Source: Centroscyllium fabricii
Lineage: Eukaryota
DNA length: 64,000 bases
Direction: 5' to 3'
Assembly: GCA_051313645.2 (NCBI GenBank)
Contig: JBNRSN020000029.1
Location: 46,562,001 to 46,626,000 of the forward strand
The notes beneath the pieces were generated by a model that was given only the letters and a program-made list of their open reading frames with translations, searched no databases and had not been told where the DNA came from. Shown here in pieces: positions 1-61,208 of this stretch; the stretch's first letter is position 1, and each line of letters starts with the position of its first letter. Position numbers and translations under genes: made by a program.

Positions 1-2576
1 ATCTAGGGCATTAATGAATGACGTCCACGTATTTATTCCTGTGAGTACATCGTTTCTTAAGCCCCTCTTAATTCTTTGGTGGAATGCAGCCTGTCCCCTG
101 AAACTAACAGCCCCTGTTGCATCAGCAGCTTGGTTAATTACATTCCTTTTCATATATGCATACAACTCTCCAGTTTTAGTAAATCTTTCACAATATCCTG
201 GCCATTATATTGGTTAAGTTCATTAGTACCGGTACAATTTTGTGTCTCACATTATCATACAATTGTTCTCCCTCGGTAAATTACACCACTCCATTTCTGG
301 GCCCAGCCATCAATTTCAGACACCTCCGTTCTTCAGGTGTCATTGTGATTGGGGGTGTTGTTGGTCCTAGGGTTGCTCCTTGTGCTGTGATCCTTGTTGT
401 TGTTGGTTGAGGTGTTGTAACACCGTGTACAATAGTTCATCTTATGATATTGTCATAAGAACATAAGAACATAAGAAATAGGAGCAGGAGTAGGCCAATC
501 GGCCCCTCGAGCCTGCTCCGCCATTCAACAAGATCATGGCTGATCTGATCCTAACCTCAATTTTATTTTAACTCTCCACCCCACCCAAACCCATGTGATC
601 ACCCGGGAGAGGCGAAAAACCAGATAAAAAACCCAGTAGCCAATTTGGGAGAAAAAATCTGGGAAATTCCTCTCCGACCCATCTAGGCGATCGAAAACTG
701 GTCCAGGAGATCACATGGCCGATCTGAACCTATCCTCACGTCCACTTACCTGCCCGCTCACCATAACCCCTAATTCCCTTTACTTCCAGGAAACTGTCTA
801 TCTCTGTTTTAAAATTATTCAAAGTAATAGCTTCCACAGCTCTCTGGGGCAGCAAATTCCACAGCCCCACCACCCTCTGGGTGAAGAAATTCCTCCTCAT
901 CTCTGTCCTAAATGAGTCACCCCTTATCCTTAGACTATGACCCCTGGTTCTGGACTCTCCTACCATCGGGAACATTCTTCCTGCATCAAGTCTGTCCAGA
1001 CCAGTTAGAATTTTGTAAGTTTCGATGAGATCCCCTCTCAATCTTCTAAACTCCAGAGAGTACAAACCCAGTCTACCCAGTCTCTCCCCATACGTCAATC
1101 CTGCCATCCCAGGTATCAGCCTAGTGAATCTCCTCTGCACTCCCTCCATGGCAAGAACGTCCTTCCTTAGATAAGGAGACCAAAACTGCACACAGTAATC
1201 AAGGCTTGGTCTCACCAAGGCCCTGTACAACTGCAGCAAGCCCTCCCTATTCCTGTACTCAAAACCTCTCGCTATGAAGGCCAACATACCATTTGGCTTC
1301 TTAACCGCCAGCTGCACCTGCATGCTCACCCTTAGCGACCGGTGCACCAGGACACCCAGGTCTCGTTGTACTTCCCTTTCTCCCAATCTATTGCCATTCA
1401 GATAATAGTCGGCATTTCTATTTTTCCCCCAAAGTGGATAACCTCGCATTTATCCACATTATACTGCATCTGCCATGTCTCGGCCCACTCGCCCAACCTG
1501 TCCAAATCATCCTGGAGCATCCTGCTATCCTTCTCGCAGCACACACGCCCTCCCAGCTTTGTGTCATCTGCAAACTTGGAGACATTACATTTAGTTCCCT
1601 TTTCTAAATCATTAATGTATATTGTGAATAGCTGGGGACCCAGGACTGAGCCCTGTGGTACCCCACTAGTCACTGCCCGCCACCCAGAAAAAGACCCATT
1701 TACTCCCACTCTCTGCTTTCTGTCTGCCAACCAATTCTCAATCCAAGTCAATACCTTGCCCCCAATCCCATGTGCCTTAACTTTAAATGCTAGTCTCTTG
1801 TGCGGGACCTTGTCGAACACCTTCTGAAAGTCCAAGTATATCACATCTACTGGTTCTCCCTGATCAATTTTCCCAGTTACATCCTCAAAAAATTCCAGCA
1901 GATTAGTCAAGCACGATTTACCTTTTGTAAATCCATGTTGACTTTGTCCAATCCTGCCGCTGCTTTTCAAGTGCTCAGTGATTACATCCTTTATTATGGA
2001 CTCCAGCATCTTCCCCACTACCGATGTCAGGCTTACTGGTCTGTAATTTCCAGCTTTCTCCCTACCACCCTTCTTGAATAGTGGAGTAACATTAGCCACC
2101 CTCCAATCCATGGGTACAGTTCCAGATTCCATCGATTGCTGGAAGATAATCAGCAATGCATCTACTATTTCCAGGGCTACCTCCCTAAGTACACTAGGAT
2201 GCAGACCATCAGGCCCCAGGGATTTATCGGCCCTCAATCCCTTCAATTTCCCTAACACCATTGTCCGTGCAGTTCAGGACATATCCTTCCCCTACTTGAC
2301 CCAACGCCTGCCAGTGTCTATTAAATCTTACCATATTGCTGGTATCTGTCATTTTACAGAGTCCACATGGTTGTTGGTCCAAGTTCACCCAGATACCGTT
2401 ACACCTGTAATATTCTTTTCCTTGTTTTTCACAATCACAACTGTGTGATATAATTAAGTTCCTCGTGGCATCTCCACTAGGGGATCTTGACCTGCAGTCC
2501 GTTATTTCAGCCTGTTATTTGGGCTTATAAGTGTTGGCAGCAGAGTAGTTATAATAAACCATCTCACTAGATCCAT
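1..2576 (-). pseudogene. 5' part of decayed ERV env (signal peptide to furin site), split by the CR1; runs off the window start
   Basis: ATG at 2576 (MDLVRWFIITTLLPTLIS), Thr/Pro-rich stretch, RIKR-GLRNDVLTGINT. Stops and frameshifts present. Confidence 0.75.
455..2259 (-). mobile_element. 5'-truncated CR1/HER1-type LINE (RT with one frameshift) inserted in ERV env, copy 1
   Basis: ORFs 1398..2261 and 736..1449 contain CR1 RT motifs (GVPQGSVLGP, KFADD, YCVQFWSP). (ATAAGAAC)n tail. 6-bp TSD ATTGTC at 449-454 and 2260-2265. Confidence 0.95.
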
Positions 2577-6749: not shown

Positions 6750-7157
6750 ATGTCGGGCCGTGGTAAAACCGGAGGAAAAGGACGCGCCAAAAGCAAGACC
6801 CGCTCCTCCCGAGCCGGTCTCCAGTTCCCGGTCGGCCGAATCCACCGGCTGCTGCGCAAAGGTCACTACGCCAAGCGGGTGGGGGCTGGAGCCCCGGTCT
6901 ACCTGGCCGCCGTCCTCGAGTATCTGACCGCCGAGATCCTGGAGCTGGCCGGTAACGCGGCCCGCGACAACAGGAAGAGCCGCATCATCCCCCGCCATCT
7001 GCTGCTCGCCATCCGCAACGACGAGGAGCTCAACAAGCTGCTGGGCAGGGTCACCATAGCCCAGGGCGGGGTCCTGCCCAACATCCAGGCCGTGTTGCTG
7101 CCCAAGAAAACCGGTCAGCCCAGCAAGGTTTACGCCAAAGGAGACAAACCTCAATAA
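6750..7157 (+). CDS. H2A: Histone H2A variant, 135 aa (N38H, E41K, Q84L, extended C-tail), copy 1
   Basis: AGLQFPVGR signature and full histone fold, intronless, with 3' stem-loop. Confidence 0.97.
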
Positions 7158-7184
7158 ATAAATCGATTCAACAACAACCACAAA

Positions 7185-7200
7185 GGCTCTTTTCAGAGCC
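7185..7200 (+). terminator. Histone 3' stem-loop of H2A (present in all 4 copies)
   Basis: CAAA-GGCTCTTTTCAGAGCC-ACCCA with purine-rich AAAGAAC downstream. Confidence 0.95.
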
Positions 7201-7814: not shown

Positions 7815-8225
7815 ATGCCGACTGTTCCTGCTGTTTCCACCAGTTCCACCACAGCCGGTGCCAAGGGCGCCGTCTCCAAGAAAGGCTCGAAGAAAACCGC
7901 CATGAAAATGACCAGGAAAGGGGTCAGGAACTACAGGAAGAGGAGGAAGGAGAGTTACAGCATCTACATCTACAAGGTGCTGAAGCAGGTCCACCCCGAC
8001 ACCGGCATCTCATCCAAGGCCATGAGTGTCATCAACTCGTTCGTCAACGACATCTTCGAGCGAATCGCCTGCGAGGCCTCACGCCTGATCCATTACAGCA
8101 AACGCCAGACCATCTCCTCCCGGGAGATCCAGACCGCCGTCCGCCTCCTGCTCCCGGGGGAACTGGCCAAGCACGCCGTCTCGGAAGGGACGAAGTCTGT
8201 CGCCAAATACACCAACTCCAAGTAG
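7815..8225 (+). CDS. H2B: Histone H2B variant, 136 aa, divergent N-tail, copy 1
   Basis: [50 protein letters not shown] and TATA upstream, stem-loop downstream. Confidence 0.97.
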
Positions 8226-8269
8226 AACCCCCACTCTCCCCAAAAAACCCTGCAATTAAATCACCAAAC

Positions 8270-8285
8270 GGCTCTTTTAAGAGCC
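8270..8285 (+). terminator. Histone 3' stem-loop of H2B (3 copies)
   Basis: AAAC-GGCTCTTTTAAGAGCC-AC. Confidence 0.95.
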
Positions 8286-9024
8286 ACTTCACAAAGTCTT
8301 AAGACGGAGCTATAAAACAAAACAGACCTTTGAACAAATACTTTTGTTAGGCTGTATGTTAATGCAATGAATTGCCAAAATAATCGTCTGGTTAATTCAT
8401 CTACATGCGTGTTCTATTTATAAAAGCTGTTTTAATTCGCAAGTTATTTTTGATTACAAGAGTCCCCGAAGAGACTGGGAAATTCACGGGGAAGGGAGCA
8501 ATCAGCTCTCAGTAAACAACTCAGAGAAGAAGAATGTCGGTTGAAGAATTTACTCTTTATATTCAAACCCAGGTGTACAGCGAAGATCAATGTTGCCGGA
8601 ACGCCAATGTTGTGGAAAAAAGCGGGTAAAATATGAGGTAGCTCAAACATTAATGTTAAGTGACGCCACGTTTCGGCCTTCGAAGACCTTTGTTCTGGTC
8701 AGGGAAAGGGGAGAACTTTACAAATGACATTTAAGGTCGAAACACGTCGCAAGACGCTTCACGGGTAATTGGATAAAGAGACGCTCAAGGCTTTACAGAG
8801 AGTTGAGCAGAAGTTTAATGAAAAAAACATAAGATTCAGAAGAACTTCGACGGGAGAAAGAGAGAATATCTCTGGAAATAAAGAATCGCTCTGAGGTGAT
8901 ACACGCTTTGGAAAGAAGGCGACTTTGTTTTGTGTTTTGTTAGCGGGCGTTTTTTCTGATGAGACCTTTGGCTCTGCAGCGTCCGGTTCGCCTGGTTAAA
9001 TAGCGCCGGCTGCTGGAAACACCT

Positions 9025-9123
9025 CATTCCCCCAACACACACTCAGAGAAAGATAGAGAAAAGATCGACGAATCAGATTAATGAACACCTTAAATATCAA
9101 ACGGCTCTTTTCAGAGCCACAAA
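9025..9123 (+). ncRNA. Candidate ~100-nt ORF-less histone-type transcript (also ~21104-21202 and ~33169-33267)
   Basis: TTAAATAG at 8996, CTCATTC cap-like motif ~27 nt later, then stem-loop and HDE. Transcription is inferred, not shown. Confidence 0.4.
9103..9118 (+). terminator. Orphan perfect histone 3' stem-loop with HDE and no histone ORF upstream, copy 1
   Basis: CAAAC-GGCTCTTTTCAGAGCC-ACAAA, AAAGAG at 9133-9138. Confidence 0.92.
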
Positions 9124-9717
9124 AACATTCACAAAGAGCCGGACCGGGGGGTTGGGTGTGTATAAAAGGAAAATTGCAATTGACCCGATGGTATATTACC
9201 AAAATCATCCTTATTGAAAAATAGAAAACAAATTATTTTCCCATTACGATACCGGAAATGATTAAACATTCGATTGAGGTTTTTTCCTGAAGTATACTTT
9301 CCAGGAATCATATGATATACGAACCAATATTGGTTTTTAACTGGTATTTTAAAGGTGGTTAAATTGTCGACAGCCGCAGAGCTGTGACCAATGGTGGGGC
9401 GGGAGACTCGGAAGACCCGGAGTCCTCAACCTGGGCGCCACTTTCAACAGTCCTCAGCCAGGTCCGCACCTGCAGCTTTTGCCTCAAATTGTTAATTTTG
9501 TTCTATTTTTCGTTTCAGTAATGAGACTATCTCTCTGAAAATGTTAAATTGTTGCAATCAAATCCTGTCGTGCAGCTCATGATTATTACTGCACCTGTTT
9601 ATTGCAATGTGCATCTCGTGAAAGTATAAACATATTTATGAACTCCTGCGGTTGCGGCGATGCCTTGTAGATAGCATTTAAATTCTGTTAGTTATTTACA
9701 CGATTGCGGTAGGTAAG

Positions 9718-10524
9718 TGTAAGGGTAAACCGGGAGAGCTTCTTCTCCCCGAGACGGACCCTCTGATATAAAGGGTCGACATCCGCCTTATTCCCAATCA
9801 ATCACTCGGAGTCCAGAGGTTCGTTCAGTAAAGCAACTTTCTACAAGTCGACAGGGGAATCACTCTTATTGGGATGAATGCTCCCCCATCGCTGAAAACC
9901 TCCTGCCTTATATATAGGTTTTGTTCTCAGTTGCGGCTACTGTTTGCAATTAGGTGCATTACACGTATACATTTATTTCTTCATACAGTTGGCTTCGGGT
10001 GCAAATTCTTTTGACCCCAAACGTAATCTCAATATATTCCTCAGTTAGTGATTCATGGTTTGTGTTCTTTGGCCACGCTACAACAGACCTCAGTTCTGTT
10101 CACAGAAACACAGAAGATAGGAGCAGGAGTAGGCCATTCAGCCCTTCGAGCGTGCTCCGCCACTTTTGATGAGATCATGGCTGATCATCCAAACCCAGCA
10201 CCCCCCTATATTCCCCGACACCCCAACTCTAAGAATTATATCTCACACACATACTCATGAGCAATTTGTAGTCTCACAAATGATCTAACCTGCATGACTT
10301 TGGGTGGTGGGAGGAAACCGGAGTACCCGGTGGAAACCCACATGAACACGTGGAGAACATGCAAACTCCACGCAGAGTAGTCCCGTGCCAAGCACGATTG
10401 GAACCCAGGAGCTCCTTATTGCGAGGGAGCAGTGCTAACCACTGCACCACCGTGTAGTCCTTATATGGTTGGAGATTTATTCTGTGCCATAATCCCCTCA
10501 TTTTAGCCCTTCTTAACCCTTTCA
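9718..10524 (-). mobile_element. 3' LTR of the minus-strand ERV, interrupted by a CR1 tail and a tRNA-derived SINE (~10105-10455), copy 1
   Basis: Minus strand: PPT AAAAGGGGGAC, then TGAAAGGGT...ACCCTTACA inverted ends, with CTATATATAAGG TATA at ~9910. Confidence 0.78.
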
Positions 10525-10868: not shown

Positions 10869-13800
10869 CTACTTTATCAAGGTCATCCGTGCTGCTCCTC
10901 CCATTCCTATTGCCACAACTAATTTTACTATAACTGGTATGTGAGAAGTAATGCGGATCCATGGGTGGATATTAACATTTATCCGACAATCCCATAGCTT
11001 CTCATACCACGGGACTTCCTGTAGTTCTACTTCTCTGTCCATTTCTAGTTCCCCAATGTTCCTTTGCAACATTACGTATTGTTTCACCATTTTACTTAAG
11101 CCCTCTTTTATCTCTTGCGAATGCTCTTGCAGCTGGGGTATGGGAGCCCCCAACGGATCTTCAGAATTGACCGATTCGTTCCTTAAACTATCTGGCACAT
11201 CTAGTTTCATTTCCTCCCTTGAGTGTACATACACCAATCTGGTGTGTCCAATTGTCACAGGGATCTTTGGTGTGAAGCAGAAGTTAGACATTGTGATTAC
11301 ACATACAAGGTTACTATATTGGTAATCAGTCTCTGTGGTGGCTATACAATACTGCCCTCTGCCTCTATATCCTGAGTGGGTGTGATTGTGAGCGACATGT
11401 GATATTCCAACACGCTCTGCCCTATTATAGCCGCATTCATCCTTAGGAACTTCTCCTACCGGATGTGGGCTTATCGTAAGCGTACCTTTCCCATGGCATC
11501 CGTTTATGGAGACTCCTCTTATAATACGATTCTTCCTGGTGGCATAGGTATCAATGGGATAGCATTGGAGGCATGTCTCACCCCTCACTGTGCCTATGTT
11601 TGTTACCTGGTACTGTGGTTATGGAGTCATAAATAGTCTCACCACTGGTATCATGAGTACCATGCCTATCATTGCTGTCACTTCTGCTTTGCATTTTTGA
11701 TCCCTGGATATATGTTGGTCATCCTCTTGAGGGCACAAGCACTCAGCGGGCCTGGATTCTGCCTCAGGCCATAGAGCGGTGTGCTGTTAATCCAGTCTGG
11801 TATCTCACCTCGTTGTATCTGTGCCAGATTGTGTTTTAACTGTCGGGTGGTCCATTGGCCATAGGCATGGCACAAGCCTCTCGCTACCCCATCTTTTGCC
11901 TGTTCTTCATCTCTATGGTTTAGTCTGTTGATAGTGCTAGCATGGTCTTCTATAACTTTGATTCCCTCAAGTAATTTCCTTATTGTGTGCTCTCCCAACT
12001 CTGATTCTTGTTGAACTAAACCAGATCTCTGTTGTATTACCCTTTGTAATTATTTCACACTACTCTGGACTCCTTGTATATCTAGGGCATTAATGAATGA
12101 CGTCCACGTATTTATTCCTGTGAGTACATCGTTTCTTAAGCCCCTCTTAATTCTTTGGTGGAATGCAGCCTGTCCCCTGAAACTAACAGCCCCTGTTGCA
12201 TCAGCAGCTTGGTTAATTACATTCCTTTTCATATATGCATACAACTCTCCAGTTTTAGTAAATCTTTCACAATATCCTGGCCATTATATTGGTTAAGTTC
12301 ATTAGTACCGGTACAATTTTGTGTCTCACATTATCATACAATTGTTCTCCCTCGGTAAATTACACCACTCCATTTCTGGGCCCAGCCATCAATTTCAGAC
12401 ACCTCCGTTCTTCAGGTGTCATTGTGATTGGGGGTGTTGTTGGTCCTAGGGTTGCTCCTTGTGCTGTGATCCTTGTTGTTGTTGGTTGAGGTGTTGTAAC
12501 ACCGTGTACAATAGTTCATCTTATGATATTGTCATAAGAACATAAGAACATAAGAAATAGGAGCAGGAGTAGGCCAATCGGCCCCTCGAGCCTGCTCCGC
12601 CATTCAACAAGATCATGGCTGATCTGATCCTAACCTCAATTTTATTTTAACTCTCCACCCCACCCAAACCCATGTGATCACCCGGGAGAGGCGAAAAACC
12701 AGATAAAAAACCCAGTAGCCAATTTGGGAGAAAAAATCTGGGAAATTCCTCTCCGACCCATCTAGGCGATCGAAAACTGGTCCAGGAGATCACATGGCCG
12801 ATCTGAACCTATCCTCACGTCCACTTACCTGCCCGCTCACCATAACCCCTAATTCCCTTTACTTCCAGGAAACTGTCTATCTCTGTTTTAAAATTATTCA
12901 AAGTAATAGCTTCCACAGCTCTCTGGGGCAGCAAATTCCACAGCCCCACCACCCTCTGGGTGAAGAAATTCCTCCTCATCTCTGTCCTAAATGAGTCACC
13001 CCTTATCCTTAGACTATGACCCCTGGTTCTGGACTCTCCTACCATCGGGAACATTCTTCCTGCATCAAGTCTGTCCAGACCAGTTAGAATTTTGTAAGTT
13101 TCGATGAGATCCCCTCTCAATCTTCTAAACTCCAGAGAGTACAAACCCAGTCTACCCAGTCTCTCCCCATACGTCAATCCTGCCATCCCAGGTATCAGCC
13201 TAGTGAATCTCCTCTGCACTCCCTCCATGGCAAGAACGTCCTTCCTTAGATAAGGAGACCAAAACTGCACACAGTAATCAAGGCTTGGTCTCACCAAGGC
13301 CCTGTACAACTGCAGCAAGCCCTCCCTATTCCTGTACTCAAAACCTCTCGCTATGAAGGCCAACATACCATTTGGCTTCTTAACCGCCAGCTGCACCTGC
13401 ATGCTCACCCTTAGCGACCGGTGCACCAGGACACCCAGGTCTCGTTGTACTTCCCTTTCTCCCAATCTATTGCCATTCAGATAATAGTCGGCATTTCTAT
13501 TTTTCCCCCAAAGTGGATAACCTCGCATTTATCCACATTATACTGCATCTGCCATGTCTCGGCCCACTCGCCCAACCTGTCCAAATCATCCTGGAGCATC
13601 CTGCTATCCTTCTCGCAGCACACACGCCCTCCCAGCTTTGTGTCATCTGCAAACTTGGAGACATTACATTTAGTTCCCTTTTCTAAATCATTAATGTATA
13701 TTGTGAATAGCTGGGGACCCAGGACTGAGCCCTGTGGTACCCCACTAGTCACTGCCCGCCACCCAGAAAAAGACCCATTTACTCCCACTCTCTGCTTTCT

Positions 13801-20304: not shown

Positions 20305-21181
20305 AACCCCCACTCTCCCCAAAAAACCCTGCAATTAAATCACCAAACGGCTCTTTTAAGAGCCACTTCACAAAGTCTTAAGACGGAGCTATAAAACAAA
20401 ACAGACCTTTGAACAAATACTTTTGTTAGGCTGTATGTTAATGCAATGAATTGCCAAAATAATCGTCTGGTTAATTCATCTACATGCGTGTTCTATTTAT
20501 AAAAGCTGTTTTAATTCGCAAGTTATTTTTGATTACAAGAGTCCCCGAAGAGACTGGGAAATTCACGGGGAAGGGAGCAATCAGCTCTCAGTAAACAACT
20601 CAGAGAAGAAGAATGTCGGTTGAAGAATTTACTCTTTATATTCAAACCCAGGTGTACAGCGAAGATCAATGTTGCCGGAACGCCAATGTTGTGGAAAAAA
20701 GCGGGTAAAATATGAGGTAGCTCAAACATTAATGTTAAGTGACGCCACGTTTCGGCCTTCGAAGACCTTTGTTCTGGTCAGGGAAAGGGGAGAACTTTAC
20801 AAATGACATTTAAGGTCGAAACACGTCGCAAGACGCTTCACGGGTAATTGGATAAAGAGACGCTCAAGGCTTTACAGAGAGTTGAGCAGAAGTTTAATGA
20901 AAAAAACATAAGATTCAGAAGAACTTCGACGGGAGAAAGAGAGAATATCTCTGGAAATAAAGAATCGCTCTGAGGTGATACACGCTTTGGAAAGAAGGCG
21001 ACTTTGTTTTGTGTTTTGTTAGCGGGCGTTTTTTCTGATGAGACCTTTGGCTCTGCAGCGTCCGGTTCGCCTGGTTAAATAGCGCCGGCTGCTGGAAACA
21101 CTTCATTCCCCCAACACACACTCAGAGAAAGATAGAGAAAAGATCGACGAATCAGATTAATGAACACCTTAAATATCAAAC

Positions 21182-21197
21182 GGCTCTTTTCAGAGCC
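21182..21197 (+). terminator. Orphan histone stem-loop, copy 2
   Basis: Identical motif. Confidence 0.92.
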
Positions 21198-21796
21198 ACA
21201 AAAACATTCACAAAGAGCCGGACCGGGGGGTTGGGTGTGTATAAAAGGAAAATTGCAATTGACCCGATGGTATATTACCAAAATCATCCTTATTGAAAAA
21301 TAGAAAACAAATTATTTTCCCATTACGATACCGGAAATGATTAAACATTCGATTGAGGTTTTTTCCTGAAGTATACTTTCCAGGAATCATATGATATACG
21401 AACCAATATTGGTTTTTAACTGGTATTTTAAAGGTGGTTAAATTGTCGACAGCCGCAGAGCTGTGACCAATGGTGGGGCGGGAGACTCGGAAGACCCGGA
21501 GTCCTCAACCTGGGCGCCACTTTCAACAGTCCTCAGCCAGGTCCGCACCTGCAGCTTTTGCCTCAAATTGTTAATTTTGTTCTATTTTTCGTTTCAGTAA
21601 TGAGACTATCTCTCTGAAAATGTTAAATTGTTGCAATCAAATCCTGTCGTGCAGCTCATGATTATTACTGCACCTGTTTATTGCAATGTGCATCTCGTGA
21701 AAGTATAAACATATTTATGAACTCCTGCGGTTGCGGCGATGCCTTGTAGATAGCATTTAAATTCTGTTAGTTATTTACACGATTGCGGTAGGTAAG

Positions 21797-22947: not shown

Positions 22948-25900
22948 CTACTTTATCAAGGTCATCCGTGCTGCTCCTCCCATTCCTATTGCCACAACTA
23001 ATTTTACTATAACTGGTATGTGAGAAGTAATGCGGATCCATGGGTGGATATTAACATTTATCCGACAATCCCATAGCTTCTCATACCACGGGACTTCCTG
23101 TAGTTCTACTTCTCTGTCCATTTCTAGTTCCCCAATGTTCCTTTGCAACATTACGTATTGTTTCACCATTTTACTTAAGCCCTCTTTTATCTCTTGCGAA
23201 TGCTCTTGCAGCTGGGGTATGGGAGCCCCCAACGGATCTTCAGAATTGACCGATTCGTTCCTTAAACTATCTGGCACATCTAGTTTCATTTCCTCCCTTG
23301 AGTGTACATACACCAATCTGGTGTGTCCAATTGTCACAGGGATCTTTGGTGTGAAGCAGAAGTTAGACATTGTGATTACACATACAAGGTTACTATATTG
23401 GTAATCAGTCTCTGTGGTGGCTATACAATACTGCCCTCTGCCTCTATATCCTGAGTGGGTGTGATTGTGAGCGACATGTGATATTCCAACACGCTCTGCC
23501 CTATTATAGCCGCATTCATCCTTAGGAACTTCTCCTACCGGATGTGGGCTTATCGTAAGCGTACCTTTCCCATGGCATCCGTTTATGGAGACTCCTCTTA
23601 TAATACGATTCTTCCTGGTGGCATCAATGGGATAGCATTGGAGGCATGTCTCACCCCTCACTGTGCCTATGTTTGTTACCTGGTACTGTGGTTATGGAGT
23701 CATAAATAGTCTCACCACTGGTATCATGAGTACCATGCCTATCATTGCTGTCACTTCTGCTTTGCATTTTTGATCCCTGGATATATGTTGGTCATCCTCT
23801 TGAGGGCACAAGCACTCAGCGGGCCTGGATTCTGCCTCAGGCCATAGAGCGGTGTGCTGTTAATCCAGTCTGGTATCTCACCTCGTTGTATCTGTGCCAG
23901 ATTGTGTTTTAACTGTCGGGTGGTCCATTGGCCATAGGCATGGCACAAGCCTCTCGCTACCCCATCTTTTGCCTGTTCTTCATCTCTATGGTTTAGTCTG
24001 TTGATAGTGCTAGCATGGTCTTCTATAACTTTGATTCCCTCAAGTAATTTCCTTATTGTGTGCTCTCCCAACTCTGATTCTTGTTGAACTAAACCAGATC
24101 TCTGTTGTATTACCCTTTGTAATTATTTCACACTACTCTGGACTCCTTGTATATCTAGGGCATTAATGAATGACGTCCACGTATTTATTCCTGTGAGTAC
24201 ATCGTTTCTTAAGCCCCTCTTAATTCTTTGGTGGAATGCAGCCTGTCCCCTGAAACTAACAGCCCCTGTTGCATCAGCAGCTTGGTTAATTACATTCCTT
24301 TTCATATATGCATACAACTCTCCAGTTTTAGTAAATCTTTCACAATATCCTGGCCATTATATTGGTTAAGTTCATTAGTACCGGTACAATTTTGTGTCTC
24401 ACATTATCATACAATTGTTCTCCCTCGGTAAATTACACCACTCCATTTCTGGGCCCAGCCATCAATTTCAGACACCTCCGTTCTTCAGGTGTCATTGTGA
24501 TTGGGGGTGTTGTTGGTCCTAGGGTTGCTCCTTGTGCTGTGATCCTTGTTGTTGTTGGTTGAGGTGTTGTAACACCGTGTACAATAGTTCATCTTATGAT
24601 ATTGTCATAAGAACATAAGAACATAAGAAATAGGAGCAGGAGTAGGCCAATCGGCCCCTCGAGCCTGCTCCGCCATTCAACAAGATCATGGCTGATCTGA
24701 TCCTAACCTCAATTTTATTTTAACTCTCCACCCCACCCAAACCCATGTGATCACCCGGGAGAGGCGAAAAACCAGATAAAAAACCCAGTAGCCAATTTGG
24801 GAGAAAAAATCTGGGAAATTCCTCTCCGACCCATCTAGGCGATCGAAAACTGGTCCAGGAGATCACATGGCCGATCTGAACCTATCCTCACGTCCACTTA
24901 CCTGCCCGCTCACCATAACCCCTAATTCCCTTTACTTCCAGGAAACTGTCTATCTCTGTTTTAAAATTATTCAAAGTAATAGCTTCCACAGCTCTCTGGG
25001 GCAGCAAATTCCACAGCCCCACCACCCTCTGGGTGAAGAAATTCCTCCTCATCTCTGTCCTAAATGAGTCACCCCTTATCCTTAGACTATGACCCCTGGT
25101 TCTGGACTCTCCTACCATCGGGAACATTCTTCCTGCATCAAGTCTGTCCAGACCAGTTAGAATTTTGTAAGTTTCGATGAGATCCCCTCTCAATCTTCTA
25201 AACTCCAGAGAGTACAAACCCAGTCTACCCAGTCTCTCCCCATACGTCAATCCTGCCATCCCAGGTATCAGCCTAGTGAATCTCCTCTGCACTCCCTCCA
25301 TGGCAAGAACGTCCTTCCTTAGATAAGGAGACCAAAACTGCACACAGTAATCAAGGCTTGGTCTCACCAAGGCCGTGTACAACTGCAGCAAGCCCTCCCT
25401 ATTCCTGTATTCAAAACCTCTCGCTATGAAGGCCAACATACCATTTGGCTTCTTAACCGCCAGCTGCACCTGCATGCTCACCCTTAGCGACCGGTGCACC
25501 AGGACACCCAGGTCTCGTTGTACTTCCCTTTCTCCCAATCTATTGCCATTCAGATAATAGTCGGCATTTCTATTTTTCCCCCAAAGTGGATAACCTCGCA
25601 TTTATCCACATTATACTGCATCTGCCATGTCTCGGCCCACTCGCCCAACCTGTCCAAATCATCCTGGAGCATCCTGCTATCCTTCTCGCAGCACACACGC
25701 CCTCCCAGCTTTGTGTCATCTGCAAACTTGGAGACATTACATTTAGTTCCCTTTTCTAAATCATTAATGTATATTGTGAATAGCTGGGGACCCAGGACTG
25801 AGCCCTGTGGTACCCCACTAGTCACTGCCCGCCACCCAGAAAAAGACCCATTTACTCCCACTCTCTGCTTTCTGTCTGCCAACCAATTCTCAATCCAAGT

Positions 25901-32369: not shown

Positions 32370-33246
32370 AACCCCCACTCTCCCCAAAAAACCCTGCAAT
32401 TAAATCACCAAACGGCTCTTTTAAGAGCCACTTCACAAAGTCTTAAGACGGAGCTATAAAACAAAACAGACCTTTGAACAAATACTTTTGTTAGGCTGTA
32501 TGTTAATGCAATGAATTGCCAAAATAATCGTCTGGTTAATTCATCTACATGCGTGTTCTATTTATAAAAGCTGTTTTAATTCGCAAGTTATTTTTGATTA
32601 CAAGAGTCCCCGAAGAGACTGGGAAATTCACGGGGAAGGGAGCAATCAGCTCTCAGTAAACAACTCAGAGAAGAAGAATGTCGGTTGAAGAATTTACTCT
32701 TTATATTCAAACCCAGGTGTACAGCGAAGATCAATGTTGCCGGAACGCCAATGTTGTGGAAAAAAGCGGGTAAAATATGAGGTAGCTCAAACATTAATGT
32801 TAAGTGACGCCACGTTTCGGCCTTCGAAGACCTTTGTTCTGGTCAGGGAAAGGGGAGAACTTTACAAATGACATTTAAGGTCGAAACACGTCGCAAGACG
32901 CTTCACGGGTAATTGGATAAAGAGACGCTCAAGGCTTTACAGAGAGTTGAGCAGAAGTTTAATGAAAGAAACATAAGATTCAGAAGAACTTCGACGGGAG
33001 AAAGAGAGAATATCTCTGGAAATAAAGAATCGCTCTGAGGTGATACACGCTTTGGAAAGAAGGCGACTTTGTTTTGTGTTTTGTTAGCGGGCGTTTTTTC
33101 TGATGAGACCTTTGGCTCTGCAGCGTCCGGTTCGCCTGGTTAAATAGCGCCGGCTGCTGGAAACACTTCATTCCCCCAGCACACACTCAGAGAAAGATAG
33201 AGAAAAGATCGACGAATCAGATTAATGAACACCTTAAATATCAAAC

Positions 33247-33262
33247 GGCTCTTTTCAGAGCC
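33247..33262 (+). terminator. Orphan histone stem-loop, copy 3
   Basis: Identical motif. Confidence 0.92.
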
Positions 33263-33861
33263 ACAAAAACATTCACAAAGAGCCGGACCGGGGGGTTGGG
33301 TGTGTATAAAAGGAAAATTGCAATTGACCCGATGGTATATTACCAAAATCATCTTTATTGAAAAATAGAAAACAAATTATTTTCCCATTACGATACCGGA
33401 AATGATTAAAAATTCGATTGAGGTTTTTTCCTGAAGTATGCTTTCCAGGAATCATATGATATACGAACCAATATTGGTTTTTAACTCGTATTTTAAAGGT
33501 GGTTAAATTGTCGACAGCTGCAGAGCTGTGACAAGTGGTGGGGCGGGAGACTCGGAAGACCCGGAGTCCTCAACCCGGGCGCCACTTTCAACAGTCCTCA
33601 GCCAGGTCCGCACCTGCAGCTTTTGCCTGAAATTGTTAATTTTGTTCTATTTTTCGTTTCAGTAATGAGACTATCTCTCTGAAAATGCTAAATTGTCGCA
33701 ATCAAATCCTGTCGTGCAGAGCATGATTGTTACTGCACGTGTTTATTGCAATGTGCATATCGTGAAACTATAAACATATTTATGAACTCCTGCGGTTGCG
33801 GCGATGCCTTGTAGATGGCATTTAAATTCTGTTAGTTATTGACACAATTGCGGTAGGTAAG

Positions 33862-35031: not shown

Positions 35032-35960
35032 CTACTTTATGAAGGTCATGTACATTTCTTCCATTTTCTGTTTTCTACATTTTTTACAGGCGCCGCGTGC
35101 TGCTCTTCCCATTCCTATTGCCACAACTAATTGTACTATAACTGGTATGTGAGAAGTAATGCGGATCCATGGGTGGATGTTAACATTCATCCGACAATCC
35201 CACAGCTTCTCATACCACGTGACTTCCTGTAGTTCTACTTCTATGTCCATTTCTAGTTCCCCAAGGTTCCTTTGCAACATTACGTATTGTTTCAACATTT
35301 TACTTAAGCCCTCTTTTATCTCTTGCAGATGCTCTTGCAGGTGGGATATGGGAGCCCCCAACAGATCTTCAGAATTGACCGATTCGTTCCTTAAACTATC
35401 TGGCACATCTAGTTTCATTTCCTCCCTTGAGTGTACATACACCAATCTGGTGTGTCCAATTGTCACAGGGATCTTTGGTGTGAAGCAGAAGTTAGACAAT
35501 GTGATTACACCAACAAGGTTACTATATTGGTACTCAGTCTCTGTGGTGGCTATACAATACTGCCCTCTGCCTCTATATCCCGAGTGGGGGTGATTGTGAG
35601 CGACATGTGATATTCCAACATGCACTGCCCTATTATAGCCGCATTCATCCTTAGGACCTTCTCCTACCGGATGTGGGCATATCGTAAGCGTACCTTTCCC
35701 ATGGCATCCGTTTATAACGACTCCTCTTATAATACGATTCTTCCTGATGGCATAGGTATCAATTGGATAGCATTGGAGGCATGTCTCACCACTCATTATG
35801 CCTATGTTTGTTATCGGGTACTGTGGGTATGGAGTCATATCTAGTCTCACCACTGGTATCAGGAGTACCATGCCTATCATAGCTGGCACTTCTGCTTTGC
35901 ATTTTTGTATCACTGGATATACTCTGGTCATCCCCTTGAGGGCACAAGCACTCAGCGGAC
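35032..35960 (-). pseudogene. ERV env C-terminal part, 299-aa open frame, 5'-truncated by deletion
   Basis: ORF 35032..35931 keeps the TM and a CKKCRKQK cytoplasmic tail. Confidence 0.85.
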
Positions 35961-46241: not shown

Positions 46242-47126
46242 ATGGATAGCAGCACGGTGAAGCCTGAGAAGCTGGACATTAGTCCCCAGGATGCCGCTGC
46301 ACCGGCTACCTTCATACACTGGTTCGGCCTACTACAGGCCTATACAGCAGCCGCCAAGGCTACTACGGACGGGGACAAGCTACAGGTCCTGAGATCAAGG
46401 ATCTCCAGCAGGGTTTTCACCCTCGTCATGAACGCTTCAACCTATGTGGACACCGTAGCGATCCTCAAGAAATGCTATGAGCGCCCGGTCCATTCCGTCT
46501 TCGCCCGACATGTGCTAGCGACCCGATCCCAGCTACCGGGTGAGTCAAACGAGGAGTTTGAGCAAGCGCTCCTGGCCCTGGTGCGGGCCTGTGGCTGCAA
46601 AGGCACAACTATTGAGCAGGAGGAAGAACTCCTCGTTCGGGACGCTTATGTTACGGGACTGAGATGCGTAGAGACCCGTCAGAGGCTGCTGGAAAGAGAT
46701 AATTTGACCCTCGAGGAGGCGACCACGTTAGCCAGATCAGTAGAGGGGGCCCATAATAAACTACAGGCGTATGGCGGCACAAACCCACAAGCCTACAGTG
46801 TATGGGCCGCGCCACAACAGGCCCAAGCCTGGGCGCCACGGGCCGAGAGCCCCACGATGGCCACGACAGCCACTAAAGACACTAGAGCCAAGCACTGCTA
46901 CTTCTGCGGCCAAGGACTGCACCCGAGAGCGAAATGCCCAGCCAGGACAGCGACCTGTATCAAATGCTTAAAGAAGGGGCACTTCGCTAAAGCCTGTAAG
47001 TCAGGTCCAACAACAACATCTCCACCAGCGCCTAACCGAAGGTATAATAGTGCAGCCTGTGAGAGCACCGAACAGGTAAGATGCATTGGCAGCGCGATCC
47101 AGCGACGGTACGGGGGTAGACAATGA
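46242..47126 (+). CDS. Gypsy Gag with tandem zinc knuckles
   Basis: CYFCGQGLHPRAKC and CIKCLKKGHFAKAC. Confidence 0.9.
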   Translation: MDSSTVKPEKLDISPQDAAAPATFIHWFGLLQAYTAAAKATTDGDKLQVLRSRISSRVFTLVMNASTYVDTVAILKKCYERPVHSVFARHVLATRSQLPGESNEEFEQALLALVRACGCKGTTIEQEEELLVRDAYVTGLRCVETRQRLLERDNLTLEEATTLARSVEGAHNKLQAYGGTNPQAYSVWAAPQQAQAWAPRAESPTMATTATKDTRAKHCYFCGQGLHPRAKCPARTATCIKCLKKGHFAKACKSGPTTTSPPAPNRRYNSAACESTEQVRCIGSAIQRRYGGRQ

Positions 47127-48068
47127 GTGCCGCCACCCCCCACCCCTTCTTACCTGATGCAGAGAAGGCCGGCCAAGCGTGACCCCTCAACGCGGCCGGC
47201 TGCGTGCGAACCACGGGCACCGCCAACCCGATCACCACGGTCCGCTGCGTGCGAACCACGGGCGCCGCCAGCGCGTTCACAGGGCCAGAGCCCCTCCACA
47301 TGCGGTGCAGAGACAAAGCCATCCGAGGTACGGGGTTTCCCCTCACAGTGCGGGGCAGGGACTGATGTACAGGGTTCCATGAACTGCGGGGCAGGGACTG
47401 ATGTACAGGGTTCCATGAACTGCAGGGCAGGGACTGATGTACGGGGTTCCATGAACTGCGGGGCAGGGACTGATGTACAGGGTTCCATGAACTGCGGGGC
47501 AGGGACTGATGTACGGGGTTCCATGAACTGCGGGGCAGGGGCTGATGTACGGGGTTCCATGAACTGCGGGGCAGGGACGGCGACATTTTGTTTTCGGGAA
47601 AAATCATCTTGTGCACAGCCCCGGCCAGCAGGGGCTGCTGCAGCCAAAATTACAGTTAATCAGGACAGGCCTCATACCCTGTCCAACTCGATTATTCCGG
47701 TAAAAATAAATAACATTAATATTGATTGTCTTTTTGACACAGGCAGCACTGAGAGTTTCGTTCACCCTGATACCGTGCGGCGCTGTGGACTGCAGATCCT
47801 GCCCACTAACTACCAAATCTCCCTAGCTTCACAGTCCCACACCGCGGACGTTACCGGCTACTGCTCCGTCACGCTCACCGTCAAGGGACGCGTGTACCAT
47901 AATTTTAAATTGTATACCCTCCGACAGTTGTGTGCCCCAGCCTTACTAGGCTTGGATTTCCAGTGCCACTTCCAGAGTGTGACAGTGGAGTTCGGCGGGA
48001 CTTTACCCTCCCTCACCGTCAGTAGCCGGGACAATTCCACCCCAAAGCCTGCGGCCTCTCCACCCTGA
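47127..48068 (+). CDS. Gypsy linker plus aspartic protease, in frame with gag after TGA
   Basis: CLFDTGSTESFV ... ALLGLDF. Confidence 0.85.
   Translation: MPPPPTPSYLMQRRPAKRDPSTRPAACEPRAPPTRSPRSAACEPRAPPARSQGQSPSTCGAETKPSEVRGFPSQCGAGTDVQGSMNCGAGTDVQGSMNCRAGTDVRGSMNCGAGTDVQGSMNCGAGTDVRGSMNCGAGADVRGSMNCGAGTATFCFREKSSCAQPRPAGAAAAKITVNQDRPHTLSNSIIPVKINNINIDCLFDTGSTESFVHPDTVRRCGLQILPTNYQISLASQSHTADVTGYCSVTLTVKGRVYHNFKLYTLRQLCAPALLGLDFQCHFQSVTVEFGGTLPSLTVSSRDNSTPKPAASPP
47349..47578 (+). repeat. 36-bp coding minisatellite, ~6.4 copies (CGAGTDV[Q/R]GSMN)
   Basis: TGCGGGGCAGGGACTGATGTAC(A/G)GGGTTCCATGAAC repeated. Confidence 0.95.
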
Positions 48069-48185
48069 GAATCGACCCCCCCCTCGCTGTTCGCCAACCT
48101 CGATCCGAAGTGCAAGCCCATTGCCACTAAGAGTCGGCGGTACAGTGAGGGGGATCGCACGTTTATCAGGTCGGAGGTCGGGCGG

Positions 48186-50507
48186 ATGCTGAAGGAGGGA
48201 ATAATTGAAGCCAGCACCAGCCCCTGGCACGCCCAAGTTGTAGTGGTGAAGTCTGGCGAGAAACGGCGGCTGGTTATCGATTACAGCCAGACTATCAACC
48301 GCTACACCGGGCTCGACGCCTACCCCCTCCCCCGCATCTCAGAAATGGTCAACCAGATCGCCCTATACAAGGTGTTCTCTACGATCGACCTTAAATCGGC
48401 GTATCACCAGCTCCCGATCAGGAAAGCCGACCACCCCTACACCGCCTTCGAGGCGAACGGTCGGCTCTACCACTTCCTCCGGGTCCCCTTTGGCGTGACC
48501 AATGGAGTGTCCGTGTTCCAACGGGAGATGGACCGTATGGTTGATCACCATGACTTGCAGGCCATCTTCCCTTACCTGGACAACGTGACCATCTGCGGCC
48601 ACGACCAGCAGGACCACGATGCCAATCTGGCCAAATTCCTCGACACGGCGGCTAAACTGGACCTCACGTATAACAAAGACAAATGTGTCTTTAATACAGC
48701 CCGGCTCGCCATTCTCGGATACGTGGTGGAGAACGGGGTCCTCGGCCCCGACCCACAGCGTATGCGACCCCTGCAAGAACTGCCCCTACCTCACAACCCC
48801 AAAGCCTTGAGGAGATGTCTAGGATTTTTCTCCTATTATGCACAATGGGTCCCACAGTTCGCAGATAAGGCTAGACCACTCCTCAAGGCTGTCGCCTTCC
48901 CCCTTTCTGCAGAAGCACAGACAGCTTTTGCAAGGATTAAGGAAGACATCGCCAAGGCGACCATGCTCGCTGTTGATGAATCCATCCCTTTCCAGGTGGA
49001 GAGTGACGCTTCGGACTTTGCCCTTGCTGCCACCCTGAATCAGGCAGGCAGGCCCATAGCGTTTTTCTCCCGCACCTTACAGGGACCCGAAACTCGCCAC
49101 TCCGCAGTGGAAAAGGAGGCCCAGGCCATCGTGGAGGCCGTGCGCTACTGGCGTCATTACCTGGCCGGTAAGCGTTTTACCCTGCTCACCGACCAACGGT
49201 CGGTGGCGTTTATGTTTAATAATAAACTACGGGGTAAGATCAAGAATGATAAGATCCTGCGGTGGCGGATCGAACTCTCGACTTACGAGTATGACATTCT
49301 TTACCGACCAGGTAAACTCAATGAACCCCCGGACGCACTGTCCAGGGGAACGTGCGCCAGTGCCCAGCTAGACTGGCTGAAGGATCTCCACGATCGCCTT
49401 TGCCACCCGGGTGTCACCAGACTCGCCCACTTCGTTAAATCCCGTAGTCTCCCCTACTCTATCACGGAGATAAAGGATATAACCCGAGAGTGCCCTGTCT
49501 GTGCGGAGTGCAAACCACACTTTTTCCGGCCAGACACGGCGCACCTCATCAAGGCCACCCGCCCCTTTGAACATCTCAGCGTTGATTTCAAAGGCCCCCT
49601 TCCCTCCACCGACCGCAACTCATACTTCCTCATGGTAGTGGATGAGTTCTCCCGCTTCCCCTTCGCTTTCCCCTGCCCAGATATGACGAGCGCAACGGTG
49701 ATCAAACACTTCACCACGCTGTTCGCCATTTTCGGTCTCCCCGGCTACATCCATAGCGACCGGGGGTCATCGTTCATGAGCGATGAACTGCGCCAGTTTC
49801 TGCTCCAGAGAGCGGTTGCCACGAGCAGAACGACCAGTTATAACCCCCGGGGGAACGGCCAGGTAGAAAGGGAGAATGGGATCATTTGGAAGGCGGTCAC
49901 CCTGGCTCTCAAGTCCAGAGGCCTTCCAGTATCCCATTGGCAGGCAGTCCTCCCAGATGCGCTGCACTCTATCCGGTCACTGTTGTGTACAGCTACTAAC
50001 GCCACTCCGCATGATCTCGTTTTTTCCTTCCACAGGAGGTCCACTTCTGGAACAGTCCTTCCCCCATGGCTGACGACTCCGGGGCCGGTTTTCCTTAGGA
50101 GGCACGTCCGGAGCCACAAAACGGACCCCCTGCTGGACAAGGTACAGCTACTTCACGCCAACCTGCACTACGCCTTTGTGCAGTTCCTAGACGGGCGTGA
50201 GGACACCGTGTCCATCAGGGACCTGGCCCCGGCCGGAAACACCACGACAGCACCCCCCGCCGGCCACCAAGTTGCTCACCCACCAGACACAGGATTGCCC
50301 CCGAGTTCCCCTGACTGCGATCCAACGAGCACTCCGCCACCGGAAGTCACAGTGCCGGCAGAGGCGGACCATTCCACCAGGGAGGCATCACCTTCTACAC
50401 TGGTGCGCCGACAGTCCTCCAGGAAGAGACGACCGCCGGAACGGCTAATTATGAACTGTTCCATCCATTCACCCCCCCCTGGACTCAACGTTTTTAACAA
50501 GGGGTGA
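48186..50507 (+). CDS. Gypsy Pol: RT, RNase H, integrase
   Basis: IDLKSAYHQ, PFG, YLDN, SDASD, HHCC (LHDRLCHPG..CPVC), VDF..SDRG..VERE. Confidence 0.95.
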   Translation: MLKEGIIEASTSPWHAQVVVVKSGEKRRLVIDYSQTINRYTGLDAYPLPRISEMVNQIALYKVFSTIDLKSAYHQLPIRKADHPYTAFEANGRLYHFLRVPFGVTNGVSVFQREMDRMVDHHDLQAIFPYLDNVTICGHDQQDHDANLAKFLDTAAKLDLTYNKDKCVFNTARLAILGYVVENGVLGPDPQRMRPLQELPLPHNPKALRRCLGFFSYYAQWVPQFADKARPLLKAVAFPLSAEAQTAFARIKEDIAKATMLAVDESIPFQVESDASDFALAATLNQAGRPIAFFSRTLQGPETRHSAVEKEAQAIVEAVRYWRHYLAGKRFTLLTDQRSVAFMFNNKLRGKIKNDKILRWRIELSTYEYDILYRPGKLNEPPDALSRGTCASAQLDWLKDLHDRLCHPGVTRLAHFVKSRSLPYSITEIKDITRECPVCAECKPHFFRPDTAHLIKATRPFEHLSVDFKGPLPSTDRNSYFLMVVDEFSRFPFAFPCPDMTSATVIKHFTTLFAIFGLPGYIHSDRGSSFMSDELRQFLLQRAVATSRTTSYNPRGNGQVERENGIIWKAVTLALKSRGLPVSHWQAVLPDALHSIRSLLCTATNATPHDLVFSFHRRSTSGTVLPPWLTTPGPVFLRRHVRSHKTDPLLDKVQLLHANLHYAFVQFLDGREDTVSIRDLAPAGNTTTAPPAGHQVAHPPDTGLPPSSPDCDPTSTPPPEVTVPAEADHSTREASPSTLVRRQSSRKRRPPERLIMNCSIHSPPPGLNVFNKG

Positions 50508-56224: not shown

Positions 56225-56480
56225 GGCGTTTGCTGTAACGGATCAGGCGGGAGGACTCGCAGGCGATTCGCTCGAAGATGTCGTTGACGAACGAGTTGAT
56301 GACACTCATGGCCGAAGAGGAGATGCCGGTGTCGGGGTGGACCTGCTTCAGCACCTTGTAGATGTAGATGCTGTAACTCTGCTTCCTGGCTTTTCTGCGT
56401 TTTTTGTCCCGTTTAGCCCGCTTCTTCCTGGCCGTTTTCTTCAGCCCTTTTTTGGAGGCTTTGGATTCCCCTTCAGGCAT
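56225..56480 (-). CDS. H2B: Histone H2B variant, 3' part lost in the gap
   Basis: [35 protein letters not shown]. Canonical octamer (~56546), TTTAAATA and CCAAT upstream. Confidence 0.93.
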
Positions 56481-59632: not shown

Positions 59633-60235
59633 ATGACTGACTCAGCTCCTGTCAAAGCCGAGGCTTCCGCTCCCGCTCCCGCTCCCGCTCCCGCTCCCGC
59701 TCCCGACCTTCAGCTCCCCGCCACCAGCGACTCCTCCCTGCCCACGGCCGCCAAGAAGAAGGCCGGCTACCGGCCGCAGAAAGGAGGCTCCGCCGCGGTG
59801 GCCGAGCAGATCCTGGAGGCGGTGGCCGCCACCAAGGAGCGCCAGGCGGCCCCCAAGCTGGGCGCCCTGAAGAAAACCATCTCGGCCTCCGGCTACGAGC
59901 CGGAGAAAGGTGCCGCCGTCCGGCCCAACCAATCGGTCAACACTTTGGACAACCAGGGCTCGCCGGTGGAGAGCGGCGCCGGCACCTCCTCGGCCTCCCT
60001 GCACCCGGACCGAGAGAAGGAGGAGGGCGAGGAAGGAGAGGACGGGGCCAAAGGAGGCGCCAAGAGGAAACCGGCCCGCAAGAGAGCGGCGGCGGCCAAA
60101 CCTGCTGCCCACAAACTCGCCAAAAAATCGGCGGCGGCCAAGAGCCCCCGGAAGGCCAAGCCCAGAAAAGCCGCCAAGCGGTCCGCAGCCTCCCGGACTG
60201 TGAGGCGTGAGCGACGTGCCCCGAAGAGGAGGTAG
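59633..60235 (+). CDS. H1: Highly divergent linker histone H1-like protein, 200 aa
   Basis: EQILEAVAATKER..LGALKKTISASGYE resembles H1 helices 1-2. K/A/R-rich tail with SPRK. GC boxes and TATA at ~59566, stem-loop 60276-60291. Confidence 0.88.
   Translation: MTDSAPVKAEASAPAPAPAPAPAPDLQLPATSDSSLPTAAKKKAGYRPQKGGSAAVAEQILEAVAATKERQAAPKLGALKKTISASGYEPEKGAAVRPNQSVNTLDNQGSPVESGAGTSSASLHPDREKEEGEEGEDGAKGGAKRKPARKRAAAAKPAAHKLAKKSAAAKSPRKAKPRKAAKRSAASRTVRRERRAPKRR

Positions 60236-60893: not shown

Positions 60894-61208
<315 letters not shown>

What the first reader, a model, noticed from the sequence alone, without database searches (positions are those of the whole stretch)
8990..9140. ORF-less histone-type mini-gene in every array unit
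Seen: a perfect third stem-loop (9103-9118) with canonical flanks and an AAAGAG HDE lies ~830 nt past the H2B stem-loop. About 105 nt upstream are TTAAATAGCGC (the same 11-mer as the TATA of the H2B at 56480) and a TCATTC cap motif like that of H2A. No histone coding sequence is present, and the only ATG is ~20 nt before the stem with no stop before it. Known: stem-loop plus HDE recruit SLBP and U7 and are nearly exclusive to histone mRNAs. Inference: either a cleanly CDS-deleted histone gene or a ~100-nt non-polyadenylated RNA acting as an SLBP/U7 decoy or histone-locus-body component, co-amplified with the variant genes. It could also be a back-up 3' end for H2B read-through.
Basis: partly seen in the sequence, partly recalled or inferred. 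Interest (0 to 1): 0.8.

Follow-up and report, generated by a model that had tools for sequence, protein, structure and literature searches.

The report
Linker-histone gene with coding sequence deleted
The ORF-less histone mini-gene is the promoter and 3' end of a shark H1 variant gene whose whole coding sequence was cut out by one shared deletion; it is most likely a dead remnant copied along with its neighbouring histone genes, although a short transcript from it is untested.

Summary
Observation confirmed: each of the three complete 12-kb units carries TATA, cap motif, stem-loop and HDE with no histone ORF. The origin is now clear. Five sister copies in the same cluster, behind the same H2B variant, hold an H1-like coding sequence between the same 5' and 3' flanks. 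The mini-gene lacks 685 nt of it (13 nt of 5'UTR, the 666-nt CDS, 6 nt of 3'UTR), and all 8 CDS-less copies share one junction. The parent is an H1 variant that is intact in other sharks and rays but broken in all 5 CDS-bearing copies here. The ncRNA branch has little support: the core changes as fast as its downstream flank (7/123 vs 10/175 sites), and one copy has a ~350-nt insertion in the would-be RNA. Two hints remain: stem-loop plus HDE are unchanged in all 8 copies (0/48, p 0.05-0.08), and only the CDS-less copies keep a whole promoter. No RNA run was available. Verdict: a deletion pseudogene in a fast-turnover histone cluster, with about a 1-in-10 chance of being a co-opted stem-loop RNA.

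The parts
8931..8949 (+). Upstream promoter remnant of the former H1 gene: TGTGTTT (reverse of the AAACACA 'H1 box'; name recalled) and a GC-rich box
   Evidence: AAACACA stands upstream of this genome's canonical H1 genes; TGTGTTT present in 8 of 8 CDS-less and 0 of 5 CDS-bearing copies
8996..9006 (+). TATA-like box TTAAATAGCGC
   Evidence: TTAAATAG in 7 of 8 CDS-less copies, ATAAATAG in one; TTCCATAG in 3 of 5 CDS-bearing copies
9024..9065 (+). Cap motif TCATTC and the retained 5'UTR of the H1 variant gene
   Evidence: Aligns with the 5'UTR of the CDS-bearing paralogs
9065..9067 (+). Deletion junction: 685 nt missing (13 nt 5'UTR, 666 nt CDS with stop, 6 nt 3'UTR), with one extra base at 9066
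   Evidence: measured on paralog F3, left end taken from F2t; same junction in 8 places on contig C811, control pattern 0
9067..9102 (+). Retained 3'UTR, with a non-conserved ATG at 9081
9103..9118 (+). Histone 3' stem-loop; expected cut after ACAAA at ~9123 (inferred)
9133..9139 (+). Histone downstream element AAAGAGC
   Evidence: predicted duplex with a U7 candidate of this genome -11.3 kcal/mol
21075..21218 (+). Second copy of the CDS-less remnant
33140..33283 (+). Third copy of the CDS-less remnant
7815..8285 (+). Intact H2B variant gene (136 aa) with its own stem-loop; the fixed upstream neighbour
   Evidence: 13 of 13 copies found are followed by the remnant or by the broken H1 gene
6750..7200 (+). 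Intact H2A gene (135 aa) of the same 12-kb unit

Best explanation
It is the promoter, 5'UTR, 3'UTR, stem-loop and HDE of an H1 linker-histone variant gene whose coding sequence was removed by one shared 685-nt deletion, and it is likely a functionless remnant carried along whenever the adjacent intact H2B variant was duplicated. Shown: the parent gene, the breakpoints, the common junction, and that all five CDS-bearing sister copies are broken. Inferred: the deletion was a near-blunt end-joining or slippage event in a GC-rich, deletion-prone CDS; the copy spread by segmental and tandem duplication with some gene conversion; any ~98-nt stem-loop RNA made from the surviving promoter would be a by-product.
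For: Five paralogs in the same position hold an H1-like CDS between the same flanks (Pfam Linker_histone E 1.3e-14). 8 of 8 CDS-less copies share the junction and fall on one side of a branch in 4 of 4 segment trees (support 94/93, 100/99, 97/97, 83/86; unrooted). The H1 variant is dead in every close copy found: a TAG in 5 of 5, start codon lost in 4 of 5, frameshifts or truncations in 4 of 5. Its CDS changes look neutral (nonsynonymous:synonymous against F3 5:4, 15:1, 5:2, 9:3; not independent). Among 6 CDS-less lineages the core varies at 7/123 sites against 10/175 just downstream (p 0.60) and 25/391 over 9146-9536 (p 0.49). Copy D8 has a ~350-nt palindromic insertion inside the 5'UTR. Independent deletions in sister copies end within about 4-14 nt of both breakpoints, so the ends are deletion-prone.
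Against: Stem-loop plus HDE show 0 changes in 48 sites among the CDS-less copies (p 0.08 vs near flank, 0.05 vs 9146-9536) and 0 substitutions in 48 across all 11 copies that have them, against 28/167 downstream (p 0.0005; this includes time when the H1 gene may have been alive). Against all flanks the core is 7/123 vs 113/1069 (p 0.054) and against the upstream spacer p 0.011, but that spacer is mosaic with older lineages. All 8 CDS-less copies keep the upstream box and a TATA, while all 5 CDS-bearing copies have a promoter lesion. A random 687-nt deletion touching the gene would spare cap and stem-loop and take the whole CDS only 22 times in 1454 (1.5%; 0.13% with free ends).
Confidence: 0.78

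Rival explanations
1. The remnant was co-opted as a ~98-nt capped, non-polyadenylated RNA that is cut by U7 snRNP and binds SLBP, acting as a decoy or as a histone-locus-body component for this variant cluster.
For: All cis signals are present and the stem-loop is the only strong fold of the predicted RNA. SL+HDE 0/48 changes. Promoter whole only in CDS-less copies. These copies outnumber the CDS-bearing ones 8 to 5. The deletion is unusually tidy.
Against: Single origin, so 8 copies are not 8 tests; four are a near-identical tandem array. TATA-to-5'UTR varies at 7/69 sites, no less than the flank (p 0.91). D8 is interrupted. The broken CDS-bearing copies keep a perfect stem-loop too, so an intact stem-loop does not single out the short form.
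Confidence: 0.1
2. It works in cis: a second, stronger processing site that ends read-through transcripts of the H2B variant, or a promoter that helps keep the locus in the histone locus body.
For: Same strand, 833 nt downstream. Predicted U7 pairing is stronger than that of the H2B variant (-11.3 vs -8.4 kcal/mol with candidate L096; -17.9 vs -9.3 with L097).
Against: The HDE strength is inherited (CDS-bearing copies -10.6 and -11.0). The H2B variant has its own intact stem-loop in 13 of 13 copies, and 2 of 13 lack the downstream one. The U7 candidates are Rfam hits of unknown activity.
Confidence: 0.08
3. It encodes a short peptide from the ATG at 9081.
For: One ATG is present in 7 of 8 CDS-less copies.
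Against: No stop before the cut site; the ATG is an old 3'UTR triplet also found in the CDS-bearing copies; lost in D3.
Confidence: 0.01
4. Assembly artefact.
For: Four copies lie in a near-identical tandem array.
Against: 8 copies at separate places with their own substitutions. Contigs of 4 public runs (2 samples, 1 study, possibly the assembly's own source) give depth across the junction bin and also show the CDS-bearing form as a loose end at 9067.
Confidence: 0.01

Closest known systems
Histone pseudogenes inside replication-dependent clusters (human H1-12P, H2AC2P and others; PMC9526256 and 10.1101/720235, passages read)
   Same: Dead histone gene copy lying among intact cluster members.
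   Different: Here no coding sequence is left at all, while promoter, cap, stem-loop and HDE are whole; it would fail the HGNC definition quoted in 10.1101/720235 (50% identity over 50% of the ORF).
Turnover of germline histone variants (H2B.L, H2A.1/H2B.1 pairs; Raman et al. 2022, PMC8857922, passages read)
   Same: Variant genes duplicate together, and one partner can die while the other stays intact.
   Different: Shark H1 variant rather than mammalian H2B; germline expression of this cluster is not shown here.
Elasmobranch 'histone H1-like' variant (Pristiophorus 217 aa, Heptranchias 219 aa, Cetorhinus, Stegostoma, Amblyraja, Rhinoraja)
   Same: Parent gene: 61% identity over 98% to the Pristiophorus protein, shared acidic C-terminal tail, sister in the tree at 99/98.
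   Different: Intact in those species; broken in 5 of 5 close copies and deleted in 8 copies here.
U7 snRNA and Y3** RNA (PMC4604341, PMC4841609; search listing and start of abstract only)
   Same: Small non-coding RNAs tied to histone 3' processing.
   Different: They act in trans as parts of the machinery and do not derive from a histone gene; this element would be a substrate mimic, and its RNA is not shown.

Membership tests
Replication-dependent histone gene | 3' stem-loop | tested here: met
   Rfam RF00032 34.6 bits over gathering 34
Replication-dependent histone gene | Purine-rich HDE about 16 nt after the stem-loop | tested here: met
   AAAGAGC 14 nt after the stem; duplex with U7 candidates; modal 16 bp in 10.1101/720235
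Replication-dependent histone gene | Intronless histone ORF | tested here: not met
   No ORF; CDS deleted
Histone pseudogene (unprocessed, by duplication and deletion) | Homology to a histone gene at a cluster position | tested here: met
   Flanks 87-97% identical to H1-bearing paralogs behind the same H2B
Histone pseudogene (unprocessed, by duplication and deletion) | Cannot encode the protein | tested here: met
   Whole CDS absent
Histone pseudogene (unprocessed, by duplication and deletion) | Evolves without constraint | tested here: inconclusive
   Core 7/123 vs flank 10/175 fits neutrality; SL+HDE 0/48 is borderline
Functional SLBP-binding non-coding RNA | A transcript with defined ends | not testable with these tools
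   No RNA holder listed; contigs cannot show ends
Functional SLBP-binding non-coding RNA | Conserved in CDS-less form across species | not testable with these tools
   No relative's DNA is held; other species have the intact protein
Functional SLBP-binding non-coding RNA | Sequence constraint above flanks | tested here: inconclusive
   Not met for the 5' part (p 0.91), borderline for SL+HDE (p 0.05-0.08)
Linker histone H1 (parent gene) | Winged-helix globular domain with basic tails | tested here: met
   PF00538 54.6 bits over cutoff 22.4 on paralog F3 read through its stop with X; alignment

The most novel reading that the evidence does not exclude
A dead H1 variant gene was reborn as a non-coding gene: loss of exactly the coding sequence left an H1 promoter driving a ~98-nt stem-loop RNA that is processed like a histone mRNA and competes for SLBP/U7 or helps hold the variant cluster in the histone locus body. 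It kept its promoter and spread to 8 copies while every copy that still carried the broken coding sequence lost its promoter.
Probability: 0.1. Interest if true: 0.75.

Novelty: new member of a known kind. Interest (0 to 1): 0.25.

Why it matters
As a remnant it records the loss, in one shark lineage, of an H1 variant kept by other sharks and rays, by several separate lesions, while the neighbouring H2B variant stayed open in all 13 copies. It also warns that a perfect stem-loop and HDE do not prove a live histone gene. If the RNA were made and kept by selection, it would be a natural coding-less histone-type transcript, for which my searches found no precedent, and a ready test of whether the stem-loop pathway can be tuned by a decoy.

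Tried and rejected
Expression: no RNA holder listed (no evidence either way). The 4 listed runs are contigs of unrecorded kind from 2 samples of 1 study; they cover spacer and mini-gene alike (29-30 of 30 bins), as DNA would, and cannot show ends or level. Read cover over the H2A and H2B coding parts was not obtained. Loss by splicing and cDNA conversion: rejected, since joining at the nearest AG|GT and AG would leave four fewer bases than are seen (read from the junctions). Microhomology joining at AAAGGG: rejected, it needs 4 further substitutions, while the F2t-type left end needs one extra base. A fold-back bringing the two breakpoints together: not seen in the DNA fold. Dating: CDS-less copies differ by up to 3.2% just downstream and up to 5.1% further on; the epaulette shark rate of 7e-10 per generation (PMC10587355, passages) would give about 10^7 generations, but it comes from another lineage and gene conversion blurs the distances, so the deletion is left undated. 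The poly(A)-signal scan over the copies had an offset error and is not used; the AATAAA near 8878 rests on letters found only in D4-D7. Rows dropped for want of anchors or sequence: D1, D2, F2t from spacer5; F3, F5 from prom; F2t, F4t from down1; D8, F2t, F3, F4t from down2. The nine-protein H1 variant group has only 71/55 support as a whole. Literature searches for a precedent listed none; the library lacks most subscription papers, and I opened no supplements. Earlier scan findings: none near, none by words, one unrelated in this genome.

Full report
Observation. The window holds three complete ~12.08-kb tandem units. Each has H2A, an H2B variant and a third histone stem-loop at 9103, 21182 and 33247, all passing Rfam's gathering score. 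The repeats and the nearest protein relatives point to a shark; I did not try to name it.

What it is. A search of the own genome with 8940-9180 gave 18 matches of 18 candidates: seven whole copies, one copy split by an insertion (two hits), eight half-hits that make five loci, and one short unrelated hit on another contig. In three of the five loci the 5' half and the 3' half lie 585-690 nt apart, and the DNA between is an H1-like coding sequence; in the other two the same CDS begins and is cut off after about 110 codons. All 13 loci lie directly behind a copy of the same H2B variant. Read through its stop with X, the best copy (F3, locus L016) gives a 221-residue protein with a Pfam linker-histone domain. 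Against it, the mini-gene lacks 685 nt: 13 nt of 5'UTR, the CDS with its stop, and 6 nt of 3'UTR, with one extra base at the join. The junction pattern occurs 8 times, all on contig C811, and its control 0 times. The CDS-less copies fall on one side of a branch in all four segment trees (unrooted, two of four with starred support). One deletion followed by duplication is the simplest reading.

The parent gene. The protein search returned 15 hits among 4977 candidates; the best eight are H1-like proteins of Pristiophorus (61%), Heptranchias, Cetorhinus, Amblyraja, Rhinoraja (three) and Stegostoma. They share the N-terminus and an acidic tail that the canonical H1 in the alignment lacks, and the tree places the dead protein beside Pristiophorus at 99/98 (the group as a whole only 71/55). 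A six-frame search of this genome with the Pristiophorus protein found the five known loci first, each with a TAG inside, and otherwise matches of 27-41% identity (78 matches; 150 of 340 candidates scored). So no intact copy was found, within that limit. The five copies carry a shared TAG (4 of 5; the fifth has two other stops), a lost start (4 of 5), frameshifts or truncations (4 of 5), and mostly nonsynonymous changes.

Is the remnant under selection? Among six non-identical CDS-less lineages the core (8996-9041, 9067-9145) varies at 7 of 123 sites, the next 175 nt at 10 of 175 and the next 216 nt at 15 of 216: no difference (p 0.60 and 0.42; pooled 0.49). The upstream spacer varies more (88/678, p 0.011), but there D1 and D2 share letters and an ~88-nt stretch with CDS-bearing copies, so it is a mosaic of older lineages. 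Copy D8 has a ~350-nt palindrome inserted in the 5'UTR. Against neutrality: stem-loop plus HDE have 0 changes in 48 sites (p 0.08 and 0.05), and 0 substitutions in 48 over all 11 copies against 28 in 167 downstream (p 0.0005), though the latter spans time when the gene may have been alive, and the broken CDS-bearing copies keep the motif as well. All 8 CDS-less copies keep TGTGTTT, the GC box and a TATA, while three CDS-bearing copies have TATA and the upstream box changed and two have lost the upstream promoter by a 439-nt deletion. This rests on one origin against two lesions, and without an outgroup the ancestral letters are unknown.

Is the tidy deletion itself a sign? A random deletion of this length that touches the gene takes the whole CDS and spares cap and stem-loop in 22 of 1454 placements. 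But the lost piece is 67% G+C against 47% and 37% beside it, the sister copies show many deletions in it, a 21-nt deletion in F1/F2t/F4t starts about 12 nt from the left breakpoint, and a deletion in F5 ends 4-6 nt from the right one. Deletion-prone ends lower the surprise (inference).

Processing signals. Five U7 candidates pass the Rfam cut-off in this genome. With the best one the remnant's HDE pairs at about -11 kcal/mol, the H2B variant's at -8.4, this unit's H2A at -4.1 and canonical H1 genes at -14.5. A transcript would therefore probably be cut and bound by SLBP, by the established rules for histone 3' ends (10.1101/720235, 11 passages read). The predicted 98-nt RNA has no strong structure apart from the stem-loop. 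Whether it is made could not be tested.

Comparison with what is known. Pseudogenes are common in histone clusters (PMC9526256, 12 of 31 passages; 10.1101/720235). Variant histone genes duplicate in pairs and die singly (PMC8857922, 12 of 33 passages). Known small RNAs of this pathway are U7 and Y3** (PMC4604341, PMC4841609; listing and start of abstract); they are not histone-gene derivatives. Seven searches listed no paper on a coding-less histone gene with intact signals; the library is partial. The name 'H1 box' and the canonical H3/H4 residues mentioned in passing are recalled.

Verdict. Real feature, origin solved: a CDS-deleted H1 variant gene, amplified with its H2B neighbour. Most likely a neutral remnant (0.78). 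A co-opted stem-loop RNA (0.10) or a cis role for H2B (0.08) is not excluded. Interest 0.25.

Noticed in passing
G000:C811 46.79-47.68 Mb (L013, L014, L015, L016, L017): An H1 variant kept by other sharks and rays is broken in all five CDS-bearing copies found here, so this lineage appears to have lost it (150 of 340 candidates scored).
   Followed up: yes
window 59636-60235 (+), with four more copies in the fetched part of the cluster: H1-like gene with stem-loop whose globular domain is so altered that Pfam gives no hit, on a long branch; its copies have open frames before their stem-loops.
   Followed up: partly
window 62703-63224 (-): Short, arginine-rich 173-aa H1 variant, open in five copies of the fetched cluster.
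   Followed up: partly
window 60897-61208 (+): H4 with substitutions at three usually fixed positions (EEVRG, RDSVT, KTVMA; canonical residues recalled), identical in several cluster copies. Cluster H3 genes also read KPLATK. The whole cluster looks like a variant set, perhaps germline; expression untested.
   Followed up: no
window 7815-8225 and 6750-7157 (+): H2B variant with a long new N-terminal tail, open in 13 of 13 copies; H2A with a C-terminal extension (VYAKGDKPQ) in some copies and not in others.
   Followed up: partly
L008 (G000:C811:47657072-47657426): About 350-nt insertion, almost a perfect hairpin (-238 kcal/mol), flanked by a ~13-nt duplication, inside the 5'UTR of copy D8; element type not identified.
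   Followed up: partly
window 9716-9840: High-copy repeat with depth about ten times the flanks and many loose ends in the laid contigs.
   Followed up: no
window 46242-50507 (+): LTR-retrotransposon-like gag/pol ORFs; LINE-like reverse transcriptase fragments in each 12-kb unit (for example 736-2261, minus strand) (family names not tested).
   Followed up: no
window 35032-35931 (-), shorter at 10869-11291 and 22948-23370: Cysteine-rich ORF with a coiled-coil-like stretch and a hydrophobic end, possibly an envelope-like remnant, inside the array unit; only seen.
   Followed up: no
L096-L100 (contigs C711, C844, C822): Five U7 snRNA candidates over the Rfam cut-off, of two sequence types; which are active is unknown.
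   Followed up: partly
G000:C811 copies D1, D2, D8, F1, F3: Copies are mosaics: F1 groups with F2t/F4t upstream but with F3 downstream; D8 shares 5' letters with F3/F5. This points to gene conversion between units.
   Followed up: partly
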